From positions 14,633 to 78,632 of IMG/VR virus record IMGVR_UViG_3300032893_000003: a stretch of DNA of 64,000 nt, one strand, 5' to 3'. This DNA is from a virus (Duplodnaviria > Heunggongvirae > Uroviricota > Caudoviricetes). The notes below the pieces were generated by a model. That model saw only the letters and a program-made list of their open reading frames with translations, had not been told where the DNA came from and searched no databases. Of the stretch, positions 15,884 through 23,254 are shown piece after piece; positions within the stretch are counted from its first letter, which is position 1, and each line of letters starts with the position of its first letter. A program made the translations under genes and the position numbers.

Positions 15884-16522
15884 ATGCACCGCAAACCACC
15901 ACACTTCATCCCAATAATCAGAGACGGAATTAAATACTGCGGAGTCCCCGATTGCGAACGCCCCCAGAAAGCGCGCGGTGTTTGTTCTGTTCATTATCAG
16001 CGCATTACTACAGGCGGCGGAGATGCTTTGAGAGATAGTCGTCTATCAGAAGCTATTTGTAAATTTCCTAAATGTAAGCGGAAACATTATGCCAAAAATA
16101 TGTGCCGTTGGCATTATAATCGCGACCCTGATACGCAGGTCCGTATTCGCACTTGGTGGCGTTCAGAGAAAGGTCGACAGCTTTCTAAAAAGACCAACGA
16201 TACTCGCCGCTTTTCTCCTGAAGGCCGTTATTCTATGGGTCAGTATCATGCAAAGACGCGCCAAAGGGAATGGACCCTATCCCTACAAAAATTTTCGGAA
16301 CTGATTAAACTTCCGTGTTCCTATTGTGGAACTCTTCCGCCACCGAAATACTGCGGAATCTGGTTAGATCGTAAAGATACGGATGGCAACTACTCAGAAG
16401 ATAACGTGACTCCCTGTTGCGCTCTCTGTAATCGCTTGAAAAATGATTTGCTAACACACGAAGAAACTCTGGAATTAATCAAGCGCCTCCGAGAACTACG
16501 TGGCGGTGTCGTTTGGTCATAG
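15884..16522 (+). CDS. HNH-like (homing) endonuclease with N-terminal Zn-finger repeats
   Basis: Two C-x4-C...C-x2-HY repeats; CSYCG...LDRKD...YSEDNVTPCCALCNRLK. Confidence 0.8.
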   Translation: MHRKPPHFIPIIRDGIKYCGVPDCERPQKARGVCSVHYQRITTGGGDALRDSRLSEAICKFPKCKRKHYAKNMCRWHYNRDPDTQVRIRTWWRSEKGRQLSKKTNDTRRFSPEGRYSMGQYHAKTRQREWTLSLQKFSELIKLPCSYCGTLPPPKYCGIWLDRKDTDGNYSEDNVTPCCALCNRLKNDLLTHEETLELIKRLRELRGGVVWS

Positions 16523-18237
16523 AAGATGAAGATGTCGAAACAGACGGGAAGAACCCTTTAGAATACAATAAATACGCGTCTTCGCGCCAACGATTAGAAA
16601 AAGCGATTCGGCCCCATAATGCGTTCAAAGTCAGTGAAAGTTTTTTTACCAAATACGGCCAGAAAAATATTTTTAGGGCAGCCAAATCGCAGTGGGTTCA
16701 TAACCTAATTTATTTAGATGGAAAAAGATTTGATTTCACTGGGCGAGATTATCTTCGCCCCATCTATGACTCAAATTACCAACACAAACTTTTAAAAACT
16801 GGGAGACAGGTTGAAAAATCGACCATGCTTGCAAATGAGTTTATTACGAACTCCTGCATTATCCCTTATTTCAAAACACTGTATGTCAGTCCTAGCCATG
16901 ATCAGACACGGCAATTTTCAAACGCTAAACTGAAGCCGTGGATAGAAGACTCTCCAGTCATTATGAAGTACCTGCAGTCAAGTTCCGTAAGTCGCCAAGT
17001 TTTCGAAAAAAGTTTTTCCAATGGCTCCATAGGATTTTTACGTTCAGCTTTTTTAAGTGCGGATCGTACCCGTGGAATCTCAGCGGATTGTTTAAATATA
17101 GATGAAATTCAAGACATTCTGACTGCTAATATTCCGGTAATGCTTGAGACTCTATCCCACTCTAAATACGGATGGAAACTATTTTCCGGTACCCCGAAGA
17201 CTTTGGATAATCCCATAGAATTTTATTGGCAAGAATCATCTCAGTGTGAATGGCTAGTAATTTGTGATCATCATGTCCCTGTACATTATAACTATTTAGA
17301 CGAGAAGTGTATCGGGCAAGAAGGAATTATTTGCAATAAATGCGGTCATCCGATCGATCCCCAGAAGGGCAAGTGGATCGCATTTAGTAGTAATCGCGAT
17401 ATTATGGGATTTAGAATTTCTCAGCTCCAGGTTCCTTGGATGCACACTCCAACAAAGTGGAAGGAAATTTTATGGAAACTGAAAAACTATTCTAAAGGGC
17501 TATTTTATAATGAGGTTTTGGGCATTAGTTGGGATAGTGCTTCAAAGCCTGTCACGCGCACAGAGCTTATTGCGTGTTGTTCCTCAAGCCACGCCTTCCG
17601 GATTGTTCCAGATGGTTTTACAAAATCAAATCATGTCTTTGCTGGAATTGATTGGGGGGAAGGTTCAGATGGAAGTGAGCGCGGGATGAAGGGGAAACTT
17701 AAAAATGCCTCTTATACGGTCTTAACTTTGGGGTGTTATCTCACGCCTCATGTTTTTTATCCGTTCTTCATGAAGCGCTATACAGGTGAGGAAGCGCTTC
17801 CTTCAAACTGCGTGAGAGATATTATTAAAATTTGTAAGCTTTTTAATGTGGCATGTATCGGTGCTGACTGGGGACATGGATGGGGAGTGAATGAACAGCT
17901 TGAACAAGCGTTTGGAGTCCCTAAGGTTATAAAATGGCAGTATGTCGGAATGCAGCGCGAGCGTAAAAAATTTGATCCTGTTGGATTAAAAATCCAAATC
18001 AATAGAACTGAAGTGATGACGGATTTTTTCACAGATATAAAAAAACAAAGATACTGTTTCCCGCCCTGGGCCATCATGCAGTCCTTTCTGTGTGATGTGG
18101 AGCATATCCACGCGGAATTTGGCACCGCCATTGCGACAAATCTTATTAAGTATGATCACAGACCGAGTGAGCCGGATGATGCGGCTCACTCCATCATTTT
18201 GTGCCGCGAGACTGCGGATCATTTTTATCACCCCTGA
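16513..18237 (+). CDS. terL: Terminase large subunit, GpA-like
   Basis: Walker A-like KTGRQVEKST, Walker B LNIDEIQD, GTPKT, nuclease AGIDWG and PDDAAHS; TTG start uncertain. Confidence 0.9.
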   Translation: MVIEDEDVETDGKNPLEYNKYASSRQRLEKAIRPHNAFKVSESFFTKYGQKNIFRAAKSQWVHNLIYLDGKRFDFTGRDYLRPIYDSNYQHKLLKTGRQVEKSTMLANEFITNSCIIPYFKTLYVSPSHDQTRQFSNAKLKPWIEDSPVIMKYLQSSSVSRQVFEKSFSNGSIGFLRSAFLSADRTRGISADCLNIDEIQDILTANIPVMLETLSHSKYGWKLFSGTPKTLDNPIEFYWQESSQCEWLVICDHHVPVHYNYLDEKCIGQEGIICNKCGHPIDPQKGKWIAFSSNRDIMGFRISQLQVPWMHTPTKWKEILWKLKNYSKGLFYNEVLGISWDSASKPVTRTELIACCSSSHAFRIVPDGFTKSNHVFAGIDWGEGSDGSERGMKGKLKNASYTVLTLGCYLTPHVFYPFFMKRYTGEEALPSNCVRDIIKICKLFNVACIGADWGHGWGVNEQLEQAFGVPKVIKWQYVGMQRERKKFDPVGLKIQINRTEVMTDFFTDIKKQRYCFPPWAIMQSFLCDVEHIHAEFGTAIATNLIKYDHRPSEPDDAAHSIILCRETADHFYHP

Positions 18238-18428
18238 TGTTCTAACGGAACTTCGTCGCCCTCTTCAAGCTGATTTTCTAGAAAACTTTCTCTTCGAAGC
18301 TCTGCTTGATACTCCAGCATTTCAAGGCGATTTTGCGCTTCACGCTCAATTTCCCAACTCATGGGCCTTCTGCCGAGAGTGGTTTCTAAATGCTCTTCTG
18401 CGTCATAGTAGATGTCTTTGTAATCCAT
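18228..18428 (-). CDS. Acidic hypothetical protein
   Basis: GAGGAGG RBS. Confidence 0.7.
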   Translation of the reverse strand: MDYKDIYYDAEEHLETTLGRRPMSWEIEREAQNRLEMLEYQAELRRESFLENQLEEGDEVPLEHQG

Positions 18429-18664
18429 TTGTCCTCCTCGTTGACTTCTGTGATGTGTAAGCCTTCAGCCTCTGTCCATAAAATTTTCCGAGTCCATTCT
18501 CCGTAGATCCAGAGCCTTGAACCCCAGTCACTCATGTCTTCTTTATCCACAGACTGCATGGCTTTTCTCTTTGCTTCTTCAATACTCTCAGCCTGAACAT
18601 AAACGGTTCCGACTGCCGGAACCATCACTTGTCCAGTGACTTTGAAAGTTTTTTCTTCGTGCAT
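18386..18664 (-). CDS. Hypothetical protein
   Basis: AAGGAGG RBS, downstream of a promoter motif. Confidence 0.7.
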   Translation of the reverse strand: MHEEKTFKVTGQVMVPAVGTVYVQAESIEEAKRKAMQSVDKEDMSDWGSRLWIYGEWTRKILWTEAEGLHITEVNEEDKWITKTSTMTQKSI

Positions 18665-18686
18665 TTTATTAAACCTCCTTTGTTTA

Positions 18687-18713
18687 CTTATAACAACAAA
18701 GGTTTGGTTTTTG
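18687..18713 (-). promoter_or_regulatory. Promoter motif copy (CAAAAA-N15-TATAAG)
   Basis: Exact consensus and spacing. Confidence 0.65.
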
Positions 18714-18718
18714 ATCGG

Positions 18719-18758
18719 TAAAAAAAGAAGAAGAAGGAGGGGCTTTTAAACCCCTCCT
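18719..18758 (-). terminator. Intrinsic terminator closing the RAMP/repeat unit
   Basis: AGGAGGGG-TTTAAAAG-CCCCTCCT followed by TCTTCTTCTTTTTTT. Confidence 0.75.
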
Positions 18759-18764
18759 CAAGAT

Positions 18765-19985
18765 GACACCTTACGGTACCCTGCTAAAGCTGTAGCTCGC
18801 AACACTTTACCTATACTATGCCACGCTGTACTTCGCTTTTGCCCAACATAACGATGCGACGCCTTGCCTTCACGTTACTTTACCTCGAGATACTACGCCC
18901 TCGCTTTGCCATAGGGCACGCCACCTCGCCCTGCCGCTACTTGACATTGGCTGACCATATTGCGCTTCGCCTCACCTTGCCAGAGCTAGACAAGAGACCG
19001 CCTCACTTTGCCTTCACATTGCTAGACTAAACTTCGCCATAACCTTACTGTAGGGAGCTTCGCCATACTTATGCCGCAACGAGACCTTGCCTTACTTCGC
19101 CAAACCATAACCACGCAATGGGGTACACCAGATCGCTTTACCTCTACGCCACCGCAAAATTACGATACTTGACCTCAAGATACCATACCATCGCTGAACC
19201 TGAGTTCACGACACCTGTGCCTAATATGACATTACTTTACCTTAACTGGGCTGTGCGTCGCAAAACCAAACCAAAACGATGCCTCGTGGGACTTTACCAT
19301 ACTCCACTCGCGCCGGATCTTACTTCGCGCTAGGGTGCCACAACGTTACCGCGTAAAACAGGGCTTCGCCGCAACGTAGCTTTACCATACCTTGCCGACA
19401 CGAGACCCCAAACGAACTCAACCGGATCACACTGAAGCTGTACCAAATATGGCTTTACTGTGCCTTTACCGTGTTAGACATAACTGGACCGTGCCCTTAC
19501 TATACCTCAAGCGACACCGCCCCACTGTACCTCTGCCATACGTGACAAGCTAGACTGTACTATACCAACACTCTGCACGACATCACAGTGCCTGTGCTAG
19601 ACTGTACTAGGCTTATGCGTGACATCGCTATAGTTCACCCAGCCGTTGCAAAACAAAGGAAAACGTCAGAATGCCGTGGCCTCACTGCGCCCAACTTAAG
19701 CTCTACTGAAAATAACTAGGCGGTGCTTTACGAAAGCAAAACTTGATTTTACTCTGCCATACCTTGGCGCAACACCAAGTCACCTCAGCACACGATGCCG
19801 TTACTATACTAAACTATGCCCTACAATACTCACACAGCACATCAGAATGCCTGAGCGTGCAAAAACTTTGCTACACCAGACTGTCGGTACAATGCCGGCA
19901 CTATATTGCACTCCACCTTGCCCTAACAGGACACAACGCAGCTATAAGACACTTTGCCCTAGCGGGGCACAGCGTAGCAATGCAG
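18765..19985 (-). repeat. Degenerate period-5 array, (R/N)GY-NN, candidate guide-RNA array
   Basis: Example minus 19120-19076: GGT-tat-GGT-tt-GGC-ga-AGT-aa-GGC-aa-GGT-ct-CGT. GY recurs every 5 nt (occasionally 6) over about 1.2 kb; no credible ORF or RBS. Confidence 0.85.
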
Positions 19986-20900
19986 TTACTGAACAGCTTC
20001 GGCGCGCTTATCGCGATAGTCATGAAGTGCGTTTAGCTCATGAGAAAATACCCCCCAGCCTGCGTTCCTCCATTGTCCGAGTCCGCAGAAATACTCCCCG
20101 TATTCAAAGAGTGTGCGCAACACGTCCTCTGTAACAGCGGAGTTTTTCAACACTCGGATATTAAATTCAAAAGAAGCGCCGGCTGGGATGATCTCGGACT
20201 TAGCTAACGTCACCCGCGGCCCTTGAGCTGTAATGACCCGAAGAGAGCGCTGGAGATGTTTGGGATTCCCATGCTCATCGCGCCTGATATCACGGTCAGC
20301 TACAATGAACTGCTCTGTGCACCTAACGTGTTGGTTAATCAGCATCTGCGTGTAGGAAGCTGAGTGGAGCACTGTGCCCTTTTTAGCAGGCATTGTGCGC
20401 GCAATAGCTTCAGCCGCAGCCTTTAAGTAGCCATAGATCATGTGATCGCCAATACAAGGCCGGTTTGTTTTTTTATCCCAAAAGAAGATCGTTGTTCCTT
20501 TGGTATCAAGCTCTTCGAAGGTTTCTTTAAGCTCGTCGAGCTTTCCAGAAAGTGCCGCTTCCCGCTGTTCAGGGGTGAATTTGTAGCCAACCATCTCTTC
20601 GAGTTTGTCGATAGTGCGCTCAATCTCCTCTTTGCTTTTCTCAGGCGAGATGTCCATTTGTCCTAAGTACTTGTTGATGGTCGTATTGATCTTACTTTTT
20701 TCCATGATGAGCTTTCGCTGCTTCTCATGGATGTGGGTGTCAAGTACATAAGGGTCAGCAGGGTTAGTGCCGAGCATATCACGGATGAGCGTGAGCTTGA
20801 CCCGGTATTCATCGAAGATTTTTGAAGGCCCGCTTGGAGTTTGCTTGGCAAGCGTTGCCGAGACTGCCTGGGCTTTTCCTTCAGTTGTTGTTTGGGACAT
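19986..20900 (-). CDS. Stand-alone RAMP/Cas7-like protein (Vipr-like)
   Basis: N-terminal YRVKLTLIRDMLGTNP strand, IGDHMIYGYLKAAAE (cf. Cas7 IPGSSxKGxLR), SEIIPAGASFEFNI and C-terminal Gly-rich loop GLGQWRNAGWGVF; AAGGAG RBS. Confidence 0.8.
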   Translation of the reverse strand: MSQTTTEGKAQAVSATLAKQTPSGPSKIFDEYRVKLTLIRDMLGTNPADPYVLDTHIHEKQRKLIMEKSKINTTINKYLGQMDISPEKSKEEIERTIDKLEEMVGYKFTPEQREAALSGKLDELKETFEELDTKGTTIFFWDKKTNRPCIGDHMIYGYLKAAAEAIARTMPAKKGTVLHSASYTQMLINQHVRCTEQFIVADRDIRRDEHGNPKHLQRSLRVITAQGPRVTLAKSEIIPAGASFEFNIRVLKNSAVTEDVLRTLFEYGEYFCGLGQWRNAGWGVFSHELNALHDYRDKRAEAVQ

Positions 20901-20943
20901 AGGATCTCCTTTTGTTTGACTGCGGATTTATTTCCGCACACGA

Positions 20944-20970
20944 CTCATAACAATAAAGGAGTGTTTTTTG
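20944..20970 (-). promoter_or_regulatory. Promoter for the RAMP/array unit (CAAAAA-N15-TATGAG)
   Basis: Consensus match 44 bp upstream of the start codon. Confidence 0.65.
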
Positions 20971-20976
20971 ATAGGT

Positions 20977-21000
20977 AAAAAAAGCCCCTTGGGAGGGGCT
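20977..21000 (-). terminator. Intrinsic terminator insulating the RAMP unit
   Basis: AGCCCCTCCCAAGGGGCTTTTTTT. Confidence 0.75.
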
Positions 21001-22471: not shown

Positions 22472-23254
22472 TTAGTTTGGTACGAATACAACTTGCGGTG
22501 GATATGCTACGCTGAGGGGCATACTAGTTGTCACAGCCGTTACAGGAGTGTCATCGTATCCGGTGATGGCGGTATTCTTACACGAGGAGCTAGTATTTAG
22601 ATCTATATATGAGGCGTACGTAATCTGGCGTACCGAAGGACCTGTTGCCTTATATATCAATCCTGTACTTGCTGTAGTACCAGCAAAATGTGTGAGTGAG
22701 TTCATAATGGCTGGTGCTTGCATATAAGTGGACCCTGTGCAATTGGCTCCTGTGTAATATAGCAGGTACCACGATTGCATCACAGCCACTGTATTGCCCG
22801 CGCCTCCTATTTGTAATACCGGCACATAGGTGACTACCGCGCTATCTGTGCTGTCATAAACCGTGAAGTTGCCGTTATACTGAAGCCCCAGGTATTGGGT
22901 CCCGATTTGCACTCCATTGGCATCCTTCGCCACGAAACCTCCATTCCCTCCAGCAGGACCTGTAGGACCTGTAGCGCCCTGCGGACCCGTGGCACCCGTA
23001 GCGCCAGTAGGACCTTGAGGTCCTTGCGGACCTGTGGCTCCAGTGGCACCTGTTGCGCCGTTAGCCGCTAGAGCTGAAGAGCCATCAGAACATGAGAATT
23101 CGGCACCTCCGGCTGCTTGATTTACAGAGCAGCCGCTAGAGGCTAGAGCATTAGGTGCGCCTACTGAAGGAGCCGAAGCTGTCGTCGTGGTGCTAGTGCC
23201 TCCAAGGCAGGCAGTAAGTGACAACGATGCGAGTAATAGAATTAGATATTTCAT
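22472..23254 (-). CDS. Collagen-repeat lipoprotein
   Basis: MKYLILLLASLSLTAC lipobox; about 13 G-X-Y triplets (GATGATGATGPQGPQGPTG). Confidence 0.8.
   Translation of the reverse strand: MKYLILLLASLSLTACLGGTSTTTTASAPSVGAPNALASSGCSVNQAAGGAEFSCSDGSSALAANGATGATGATGPQGPQGPTGATGATGPQGATGPTGPAGGNGGFVAKDANGVQIGTQYLGLQYNGNFTVYDSTDSAVVTYVPVLQIGGAGNTVAVMQSWYLLYYTGANCTGSTYMQAPAIMNSLTHFAGTTASTGLIYKATGPSVRQITYASYIDLNTSSSCKNTAITGYDDTPVTAVTTSMPLSVAYPPQVVFVPN

What the first reader, a model, noticed from the sequence alone, without database searches (positions are those of the whole stretch)
18765..19985. Array is punctuated into 5n+1 modules at GGCA anchors and shows polarity
Seen: minus-strand GGCA anchors at 19958, 19922, 19896, 19851, 19820, 19799 and 19758 are spaced 36, 26, 45, 31, 21 and 41 nt. 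Five of six spacings equal 5n+1, because a 3-nt variable step often precedes GGC. By eye, gene-proximal pentamers often use TGY/CGY/AGY, while the distal about 400 nt is richer in GGY/AGY. Inference: the +1 slips mark guide boundaries or processing sites, and the gradient may reflect unit age or directional acquisition.
Basis: partly seen in the sequence, partly recalled or inferred. Interest (0 to 1): 0.7.

Follow-up and report, generated by a model that had tools for sequence, protein, structure and literature searches.

The report
Phage VIPR guide array, +1 punctuated
The 1.2-kb tract is the guide-RNA array of a phage VIPR system, a CRISPR-like RNA-guided DNA-silencing system first described in 2026 preprints; one extra base about every six 5-base units divides it into about 45 short guide modules, while the proposed gradient along the array is weak.

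Summary
The punctuation is real. On the minus strand, 18766-19984 holds 237 units of N-G-Y-N-N with a sharp 5.17-nt (31/6) period. There are 42 six-base steps. 33 of 44 modules hold 5-7 units (p = 9e-15 against random placement), and 31 nt is the commonest length. The unit after a step is GGY in 68% (24% elsewhere) and GGYA in 50% (10% elsewhere).

The gene just upstream (19986-20900, minus) encodes a lone Cas7-like RAMP protein. Its G-loop aligns with that of Vipr from phage SUSP1. The locus is therefore a VIPR system (bioRxiv 10.64898/2026.04.26.720920). It uses the relaxed YNNNG repeat, and its tail-less layout probably matches the "staggered" arrays that preprint mentions.

About 100 related loci show the same 5.1-5.26 nt period, a 31-nt modal module and a GGYA junction. 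Close relatives differ by whole modules. This supports the reading that the +1 steps mark guide boundaries.

The polarity claim is not supported. The first-base gradient is weak (rho 0.15, p 0.02, uncorrected), and related arrays change in a mosaic, not from one end. RNA ends were not mapped and no target was found.

This is a new member of a known kind. The scan had already noted the same punctuation in other genomes.

The parts
20983..21000 (-). Terminator-like hairpin with a T run just upstream of the vipr gene. It closes the preceding transcription unit, so vipr plus array form their own unit.
   Evidence: stem of 7 pairs (5 G-C), loop of 4, followed by TTTTTTT.
19986..20900 (-). vipr gene: a 304-aa lone Cas7-like RAMP protein (P0001) with the C-terminal G-loop GLGQWRNAGWG.
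   Evidence: No Pfam or PHROG family. AlphaFold2 model pLDDT 75. Foldseek top hits are type VII Cas7 and Csm3, E about 1e-6. VIA-align gives Z 12.4 to Cas7, Csm3 and Cmr4, and the top 35 hits are all CRISPR RAMPs. hhalign to SUSP1 Vipr gives probability 73%, E 3e-5 over the G-loop. 1587 clusters at 50% identity.
18766..19984 (-). vrRNA array: 237 units of N-G-Y-N-N (the preprint's YNNNG) in about 45 modules. It starts two bases after the vipr stop codon. Module 5' starts: 19984, 19958, 19922, 19896, 19882, 19861, 19830, 19799, 19763, 19732, 19696, 19675, 19644, 19613, 19592, 19566, 19547, 19531, 19495, 19464, 19433, 19407, 19396, 19370, 19339, 19308, 19272, 19241, 19215, 19189, 19158, 19142, 19106, 19075, 19069, 19038, 19012, 18981, 18935, 18899, 18868, 18837, 18811, 18785.
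   Evidence: Segmentation: G2 86%, Y3 99%; module lengths 31 nt (16), 26 (10), 36 (7). No ORF of matching extent on this strand. No Rfam family and no ribozyme. RNA folds no better than shuffles, z = +1.3.
18936..18981 (-). The longest module (9 units, 46 nt), used for the target search.
   Evidence: The NNx pattern scan gave 23 viral contigs in 3 gene families, about what chance gives.
18724..18759 (-). Intrinsic terminator that ends the vipr-array transcript: an 11-pair hairpin and a T-rich tail.
   Evidence: the sequence is visible.

Best explanation
This is a VIPR (Viral Interference Programmable Repeat) locus of a 175-kb uncultured phage.

Transcript (inferred): vipr and the array are transcribed together on the minus strand, from just below the hairpin at 20983-21000 to the terminator at 18734-18759.

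Filament (inferred from the SUSP1 structures): Vipr, a Cas7-like RAMP protein, polymerises on the RNA with one protomer per 5-nt unit. It grips the constant G-Y and exposes the variable bases for gapped pairing with DNA of a rival mobile element, which silences that DNA.

Punctuation (shown): the array is not one guide. An extra base, usually the first G of a GGYA word, shifts the register by +1 about every six units. This cuts the transcript into about 45 modules, typically G + 6 x (GY-NNN) = 31 nt.

Module as guide (inferred): each module acts as one short guide. Six units equal one turn of the six-subunit Vipr-RNA helix reported for SUSP1. The phase break, with or without cleavage at the junction, ends one filament and starts the next. 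It replaces the 3' tail or ribozyme that separates guides in other VIPR types.

What is shown: the periodicity, the punctuation, the junction motif, its conservation across the family, module-wise turnover, the RAMP fold and the G-loop match.

What is inferred: RNA processing, one filament per module, DNA silencing and the targets.
For: 1. Periodicity and regular +1 steps.
2. GGY/GGYA enrichment after each step.
3. RAMP fold and G-loop. The G-loop aligns with SUSP1 Vipr: GLGQWRN against GVGDWRP.
4. The preprints describe Vipr plus GGY/NN vrRNAs, the alternative YNNNG repeats, tail-less 'staggered' arrays, one protomer per repeat and six subunits per turn in the binary filament.
5. Nearly all of 80 related viral loci carry an adjacent array with a period of 5.10-5.26, never 5.00. 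Pooled module lengths peak at 31 (241), then 26 (147) and 36 (118). The window's own clade gives 31 nt for 28% of modules and 26-36 nt for 61% of 510.
6. The junction motif is conserved in 15 diverse arrays.
7. Modules behave as cassettes in close relatives.
8. Substitution rates between homologous modules: G2 0.023, against N1 0.103, N4 0.122 and N5 0.148.
9. Array content is not shared with relatives whose protein is 62% identical, and there are no long internal repeats. Both are expected of a guide repertoire.
10. Terminators bracket the unit, and the RNA is unstructured.
Against: - No RNA data, so neither transcription nor processing at the junctions is shown.
- Sequence similarity to the characterised SUSP1 Vipr is limited to about 50 residues around the G-loop. 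The profile search of PDB sequences scored it only E 0.63, and it dropped out with broader profiles.
- No target was found. The 9-unit module's hits fit chance. Other modules on those contigs hit 6 sites against 3.25 expected (p about 0.04). There is no convergence on two fully fetched candidate phages.
- Six-unit guides give only 12 read bases under the published NN rule, which is poor specificity, and they are shorter than the 9-16 repeats reported.
- No conserved accessory (vap) gene lies beside vipr.
- I could read only the legend of the preprint's Fig. S18, so the equation of '5n+1 modules' with its 'staggered arrays with 1-nt overlap' is my reading.
Confidence: 0.8

Rival explanations
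1. One continuous ribonucleoprotein. The whole 1.2-kb RNA is coated by a single Vipr filament, and the +1 base every six units only relieves helical strain once per turn. Modules are then not separate guides.
For: The period of 31/6 matches the six-subunit turn of the binary filament. No cleavage signal, ribozyme or tail was found. The long-range phase coherence (lags 31, 62, 93) is high.
Against: Module lengths vary (21, 26, 31, 36, 41, 46 nt), which a strict once-per-turn requirement would not allow. Relatives exchange, lose and gain whole modules bounded by the junction. The junction carries its own conserved word, GGYA, and in other clades GCAAN|GGCA.
Confidence: 0.12
2. Decoy or sponge RNA. 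The array soaks up or redirects the Vipr protein of a competing phage rather than guiding the phage's own protein.
For: The October 2026 preprint reports stand-alone vrRNAs in satellites and phages that redirect a rival's VIPR (abstract).
Against: Here the array directly follows a conserved vipr gene, with no terminator found between them. This pairing holds in about 100 related loci.
Confidence: 0.04
3. A DNA-level element. A 5.17-bp period is half a DNA helical turn, so the tract could be a structural or protein-binding DNA site, for example for packaging, since it lies next to the terminase gene.
For: 5.17 x 2 = 10.3 bp. The convergent terL neighbour is conserved in L002 and L004.
Against: There is no power at 10.3 bp. 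The motif is strand-specific (G-Y on the vipr strand; score 259 against -189 for the other strand). The tract is bracketed by terminators of that strand. Arrays follow vipr in phages with other neighbours. The variable positions turn over quickly while G2 is fixed.
Confidence: 0.03

Closest known systems
VIPR systems with 'staggered' vrRNA arrays and YNNNG repeats (bioRxiv 10.64898/2026.04.26.720920, Fig. S18 legend and methods)
   Same: - A lone viral RAMP gene followed by a long non-coding run of pentanucleotide repeats, with a fixed G-Y and variable other positions.
[quoted passage not shown]
- If each guide is written GG + (YNNNG) x n, neighbours share one G. That gives exactly the 5n+1 start-to-start spacing seen here.
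   Different: - The main text says sRNA sequencing confirmed the ribozyme-interspersed and single-vrRNA types, which leaves the staggered type without that confirmation in what I could read.
- The text I could read gives no module length, junction motif or statistics.
- Here the array is very long (about 45 modules) and modules are short (mode of 6 units, against 9-16 repeats reported).
- No vap gene is conserved.
- I could not place this protein in the preprint's types I-VII.
Type II VIPR of Escherichia phage SUSP1 (KT454805; Vipr structure 36pp; vrRNA about 100 nt)
   Same: A Cas7-like protein with the G-loop W-R pair. Pentamer repeats lie on the same strand as the gene. The system is carried by a phage.
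   Different: - SUSP1 repeats are strictly 5.0-nt phased GGY-NN, with G1 conserved. There are 4 vrRNAs, each ending in a structured tail, and a vap1 gene.
- Here the first base of inner units is as variable as N4 and N5, there is a +1 step about every 6 units, and there are no tails.
- SUSP1 D177, which reads G1, aligns with Q276 here.
- The protein is 304 aa against 195 aa, with a larger helical insert.
Class 1 CRISPR-Cas backbone (Cas7, Csm3, Cmr4) on crRNA
   Same: Same fold (Z 12.4). One subunit binds per fixed step of guide, with a thumb that flips bases out.
   Different: No CRISPR repeat-spacer array: Tandem Repeats Finder reports only short, unrelated repeats. The step is 5 nt, not 6. 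It is a single-protein system in a phage. No other cas gene was noticed nearby, though that was not searched exhaustively.

Membership tests
VIPR system | Lone RAMP protein (RRM core, glycine-rich loop, thumb) related to Vipr | tested here: met
   The fold matches Cas7, Csm3 and Cmr4. The G-loop is GLGQWRNAGWG. hhalign to SUSP1 Vipr gives probability 73%, E 3e-5 over 50 columns around the G-loop.
VIPR system | Full-length homology to an experimentally characterised Vipr (SUSP1 or P. fulva) | tested here: inconclusive
   Only the C-terminal 50 columns align. The PDB profile search scored SUSP1 Vipr at E 0.63, and it was absent with two other profiles. Vipr structures were not seen in the fold libraries.
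VIPR system | Adjacent non-coding tandem pentanucleotide repeats with a fixed GGY-like core and hypervariable other positions | tested here: met
   237 units of N-G-Y-N-N, with G2 86% and Y3 99%. This is the YNNNG variant named in the preprint's methods. Between homologous modules G2 changes 4-6 times more slowly than N1, N4 and N5.
VIPR system | Carried mainly by phages or proviruses | tested here: met
   The window lies in a 175,168-bp virus record with terminase, DNA polymerase and RNA polymerase subunits.
VIPR system | vrRNAs are expressed and co-purify with Vipr | not testable with these tools
   No RNA or protein data. Only terminators bracketing the unit.
VIPR system | Variable bases match natural targets in rival mobile elements under the 1-nt skip rule | tested here: inconclusive
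   The 9-unit module gave 3 gene families in IMG/VR, about what chance gives. Local searches with 34 window modules and 554 family modules did not exceed shuffled controls. There is no self-targeting.
VIPR system | Accessory vap gene next to vipr (typical, not universal) | tested here: not met
   None of six neighbouring small ORFs has a homologue beside vipr in related loci. None has a Pfam hit above threshold.
VIPR type II (SUSP1-like) | 9-16 strictly in-phase GGY-NN repeats capped by a conserved structured 3' tail | tested here: not met
   The period is 5.17, not 5.00, and modules hold mostly 5-7 units. No structure above shuffles. SUSP1 itself shows period 5.0 plus a tail.
VIPR 'staggered' arrays | Tail-less vrRNAs that abut, offset by one nucleotide | tested here: met
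   Module spacing is 5n+1, and the extra base is G in 30/42. The figure itself could not be seen, only its legend.
CRISPR-Cas | Array of identical 25-40 nt repeats separated by unique spacers | tested here: not met
   No such repeats were found by Tandem Repeats Finder or the repeat finder.

The most novel reading that the evidence does not exclude
The +1 register shift may itself be the guide delimiter. It would stop Vipr polymerisation after about six protomers, which is one helical turn, so that an uncut or simply nicked 1.2-kb transcript carries about 45 independent one-turn filaments. No tail, ribozyme or Cas6-like nuclease would be needed.

In this family the first repeat base may also have joined N4 and N5 as a third read position (GY-NNN). 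This goes with the D-to-Q change at the residue that reads G1 in SUSP1. A 31-nt module would then read about 18 target bases rather than 12.
Probability: 0.25. Interest if true: 0.65.

Novelty: new member of a known kind. Interest (0 to 1): 0.4.

Why it matters
VIPR systems were described only in 2026 preprints, and the tail-less 'staggered' arrays are mentioned there without experiments. This locus and about 100 relatives give that architecture numbers:
- a 5.17-nt period;
- a modal module of 31 nt, which is six protomers or one turn of the published filament;
- a conserved GGYA junction;
- module-by-module turnover.

Together these say how a phage can pack dozens of guides into one transcript without repeats, tails or ribozymes. 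They suggest simple tests: end mapping, and deleting the +1 base. The relaxed first base, together with the D-to-Q change in the G-loop, hints at a different reading rule. That would matter for anyone who wants to reprogram these small proteins.

Tried and rejected
- Rfam search of 18000-21000: only a sub-threshold viral UTR match, and no ribozyme.
- Tandem Repeats Finder does not see the 5-nt array; the units are too degenerate.
- blastn of the locus against 50,697 phage records: no match. tblastn of the protein found only four unannotated gut phage contigs and no cultured phage.
- Array content compared with L002-L005 and 76 further loci: nothing shared beyond 13-18 nt.
- Targets under the published NN-skip rule, in the phage's own genome and in fetched loci: not above shuffled controls.
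- Contiguous NNN reading: no significant local match. No exact 27-mer exists in IMG/VR for the 9-unit module; the best candidate matched 5 of 8 third positions.
- Sense stop-codon depletion in the variable triplets: 1-2 observed against 6-8 expected in the window, and 73 against 104 pooled over 26 arrays. This is suggestive, but it does not separate a 2-base from a 3-base code.
- In-frame ATG and SD-like words in decoded modules are at the level base composition predicts (8 against 7).
- Directional (leader-end) turnover was tested and rejected.
- SUSP1 Vipr could not be brought up by three PDB profile searches. I fetched it from KT454805 instead.

Full report
**What is in the sequence.** On the minus strand the tract 18766-19984 starts two bases after the stop codon of a 304-codon gene (19986-20900). 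It ends at an 11-pair hairpin with a T-rich tail (18734-18759). A second terminator-like hairpin (20983-21000) lies just upstream of the gene, so gene plus tract look like one insulated transcription unit.

The tract has no ORF of matching extent. It has no Rfam match above threshold, and it folds no better than shuffled sequence (z = +1.3).

**Checking the observation.**
- Base autocorrelation peaks at lag 5 (0.381). It then drifts to lags 11, 16, 21 and 26 and returns to full height at lag 31 (0.381), 36, 62 and 93.
- The Fourier spectrum has one dominant peak at 5.17 nt (31/6), and its only harmonic is near 2.58.
- In a sliding scan of the window this signal occurs only between 18750 and 19950.
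- A Viterbi/EM segmentation gives 237 units of N-G-Y-N-N (G 86%, Y 99%): 193 of five bases, 42 of six and 2 of four.
- The six-base steps are regularly spaced. 33 of 44 modules hold 5-7 units, against 20% for a geometric distribution (p = 9e-15). Shuffling the order of units drops the Fourier peak from 22.5 to 10.2 +/- 3.1 (0 of 300 shuffles reach it) and lag-31 autocorrelation to 0.299 +/- 0.015.
- Module lengths are 31 nt (16 modules), 26 (10), 36 (7) and 21 (3).
- The unit that follows a step is GGY in 30/44 against 47/192 elsewhere, and GGYA in 22/44 against 20/192 (p about 1e-8).
- Between successive G-Y pairs there are three variable bases (192 cases) or four (42 cases). The fourth is G in 30 of 42. 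A typical module can therefore be written G + 6 x (GY-NNN) = 31 nt.
- In inner units the first base is as variable (about 1.9 bits) as the fourth and fifth.

**The polarity claim.**
- Along the array the first base shifts only slightly towards G (rho 0.15, p = 0.02 uncorrected). Purine against pyrimidine gives p = 0.056, and the six-bin chi-square gives p = 0.37.
- The strong polarity is within each module: first unit GGYA, second unit purine-rich, then mixed.

**What the gene is.**
- The protein has no Pfam or PHROG family.
- It ends in GLGQWRNAGWG, the GhGxxxxxGhG glycine-rich loop of RAMP proteins. That naming rests on my own knowledge; the sequence is.
- An AlphaFold2 model (pLDDT 75) matches Cas7 of type VII, Csm3 and Cmr4 (Foldseek E about 1e-6; VIA-align Z 12.4, rmsd about 4 Å over 141-161 residues). 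The top 35 hits are all CRISPR RAMPs.
- Profile searches of PDB sequences hit Cas7 and Csm4 G-loops (E 1e-4 to 2e-3). One of them listed 'SUSP1 Vipr protein' weakly (E 0.63).

**Comparison with the literature.** That weak hit led to three 2026 preprints.
- VIPR systems pair a lone viral RAMP protein (Vipr) with vrRNAs made of GGY/NN pentamers.
- One protomer binds each repeat and forms a helix with six subunits per turn.
- The NN bases pair with double-stranded DNA, skipping every third target base.
- Natural targets are rival phages and satellites.
- The methods list alternative NNNGG, YNNNG and NNNNG repeats. The unit here is YNNNG.
[quoted passage not shown] The text says sRNA sequencing confirmed the ribozyme-interspersed and single-vrRNA architectures, which leaves the staggered one without that confirmation in what I could read.
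- Written as GG + (YNNNG) x n, neighbouring modules here share one G. That gives exactly the 5n+1 spacing, so I take this to be that architecture. I could not see the figure.

**Direct comparison with SUSP1.**
- I fetched SUSP1 (KT454805). Its vrRNAs are strictly 5.0-nt phased GGY-NN runs followed by a hairpin tail.
- hhalign of the family profile against the 195-aa SUSP1 protein aligns only the G-loop region (probability 73%, E 3e-5): GLGQWRN against GVGDWRP.
- In the cryo-EM preprint D177 reads G1, W178 stacks on G2 and R179 holds Y3. Here W and R are kept and D is Q, while G2 and Y3 are fixed and the first base is free.
- That correlation is suggestive. It rests on one short alignment.

**Relatives.**
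- The family is large: 225 proteins in the word-indexed search and 1587 clusters at 50% identity. None carries an informative name; where a source gives one it is 'hypothetical protein'.
- Of 80 related viral loci, nearly all have an array next to the gene with a period of 5.10-5.26, never 5.00.
- Pooled module lengths peak at 31 nt (241), then 26 (147) and 36 (118).
- In 20 arrays of the window's own clade (45-64% protein identity), 28% of 510 modules are 31 nt and 61% are 26-36 nt. The unit after a step is GGY in 81% and GGYA in 41%, and G is not favoured as the first base of other units.
- The GGYA junction recurs in 15 diverse arrays. Some clades also fix the last unit, for example GCAAN|GGCA.

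**Are modules functional units?**
- Array content is not conserved between phages whose protein is 62% identical. The window's array has no internal repeat longer than 18 nt.
- Among close relatives the arrays are colinear mosaics. L043 and L069 have three against five unrelated modules, followed by near-identical ones.
- Five phages of another group share some modules and replace others.
- L005 and L123, in the window's clade, differ by module loss, replacement and duplication with divergence.
- Ends of homology blocks pile up 5 nt before and 3-5 nt after module boundaries: 89 of 382 starts and 108 of 390 ends, where a flat distribution gives about 3% per position. These pairs are not independent.
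- Between homologous modules G2 changes at 0.023 per site, against 0.10-0.15 for N1, N4 and N5.
- Sharing by fifths of the array is 0.40, 0.51, 0.37, 0.19, 0.30 from the gene-proximal to the distal end, so there is no newer end.

**Targets.**
- Under the published rule, the 34 longer window modules have no excess of matches in the phage's own genome (2 perfect against 4.1 expected) or in the fetched loci.
- The one 9-unit module gave 23 viral contigs that collapse to three gene families, all in-frame coding matches. That is about what its 18 fixed bases predict by chance.
- Other modules hit those contigs slightly more often than shuffled ones (6 against 3.25 modules, p about 0.04).
- Two candidate phages fetched in full show no convergence.
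- A pooled test with 554 modules of the family was also flat (92 against 63-90).
- Targets therefore remain unknown.

**Neighbours.** No small ORF beside vipr is conserved in relatives. Only the convergent terminase gene is, in L002 and L004.

**Verdict.**
- The punctuation into 5n+1 modules at GGYA anchors is real, regular and family-wide.
- It most likely marks the boundaries of short guides in a tail-less VIPR array.
- The array-wide gradient is marginal and does not reflect directional growth.
- The system and probably this architecture are already in print, and earlier reports of this scan reached the same reading on other genomes. This is a new member of a known kind, with some quantitative detail that the accessible text does not give.

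Noticed in passing
L076:4551-8450 (IMGVR_UViG_3300035520_000350, a 243-kb contig): A related Vipr gene is followed by runs of 5.1-nt periodic sequence spanning about 3.5 kb, to the end of the fetched stretch. That would be about 100 modules, far larger than any array described in the text I read.
   Followed up: partly
window 18936-18981 and 18900-18935 (minus strand): If the three variable bases of each unit are read contiguously, two neighbouring modules spell a Shine-Dalgarno-like word, a 5-base gap and ATG (AAGGAGG-AAGCA-ATG and AGGGAGG-GCGCC-ATG). Overall, in-frame ATG is at the level base composition predicts (8 against 7), so this may be chance.
   Followed up: partly
window 19549-19562 and 19596-19609: An exact 14-nt repeat (minus strand TAGTACAGTCTAGC) links two modules 47 nt apart. 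It is a trace of partial module duplication, the same process seen between L005 and L123.
   Followed up: partly
window 16513-18237 (+) with 18386-18664 (-): The terminase large-subunit gene converges on the vipr-array unit, with one 92-aa ORF between them. The terL-vipr neighbourhood is kept in the relatives L002 and L004, while the small ORFs are not.
   Followed up: partly
window 22472-23254 (minus strand): A 260-aa ORF with a collagen-like Gly-X-Y repeat (Pfam Collagen E 6e-6, just under threshold) lies upstream of the VIPR unit.
   Followed up: no
L029:4687-4746, L024:4707-4766, L038:4677-4736, L059:4567-4626: In the clade whose protein is about 38% identical, a stretch of irregular short modules (19, 16, 14 and 11 nt) inside the array is conserved in all members, while the flanking modules vary. 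It could be a structured or regulatory element within the array.
   Followed up: no
L083-L105 (marine-type viral contigs): About 19 contigs share a conserved coding stretch (K-E-D-A-I-Q-K-Q-S) that matches all 18 read bases of the window's 9-unit module. Two further window modules have perfect matches in subsets of the same contigs. This is a weak lead to a target (p about 0.04) and was not established.
   Followed up: partly
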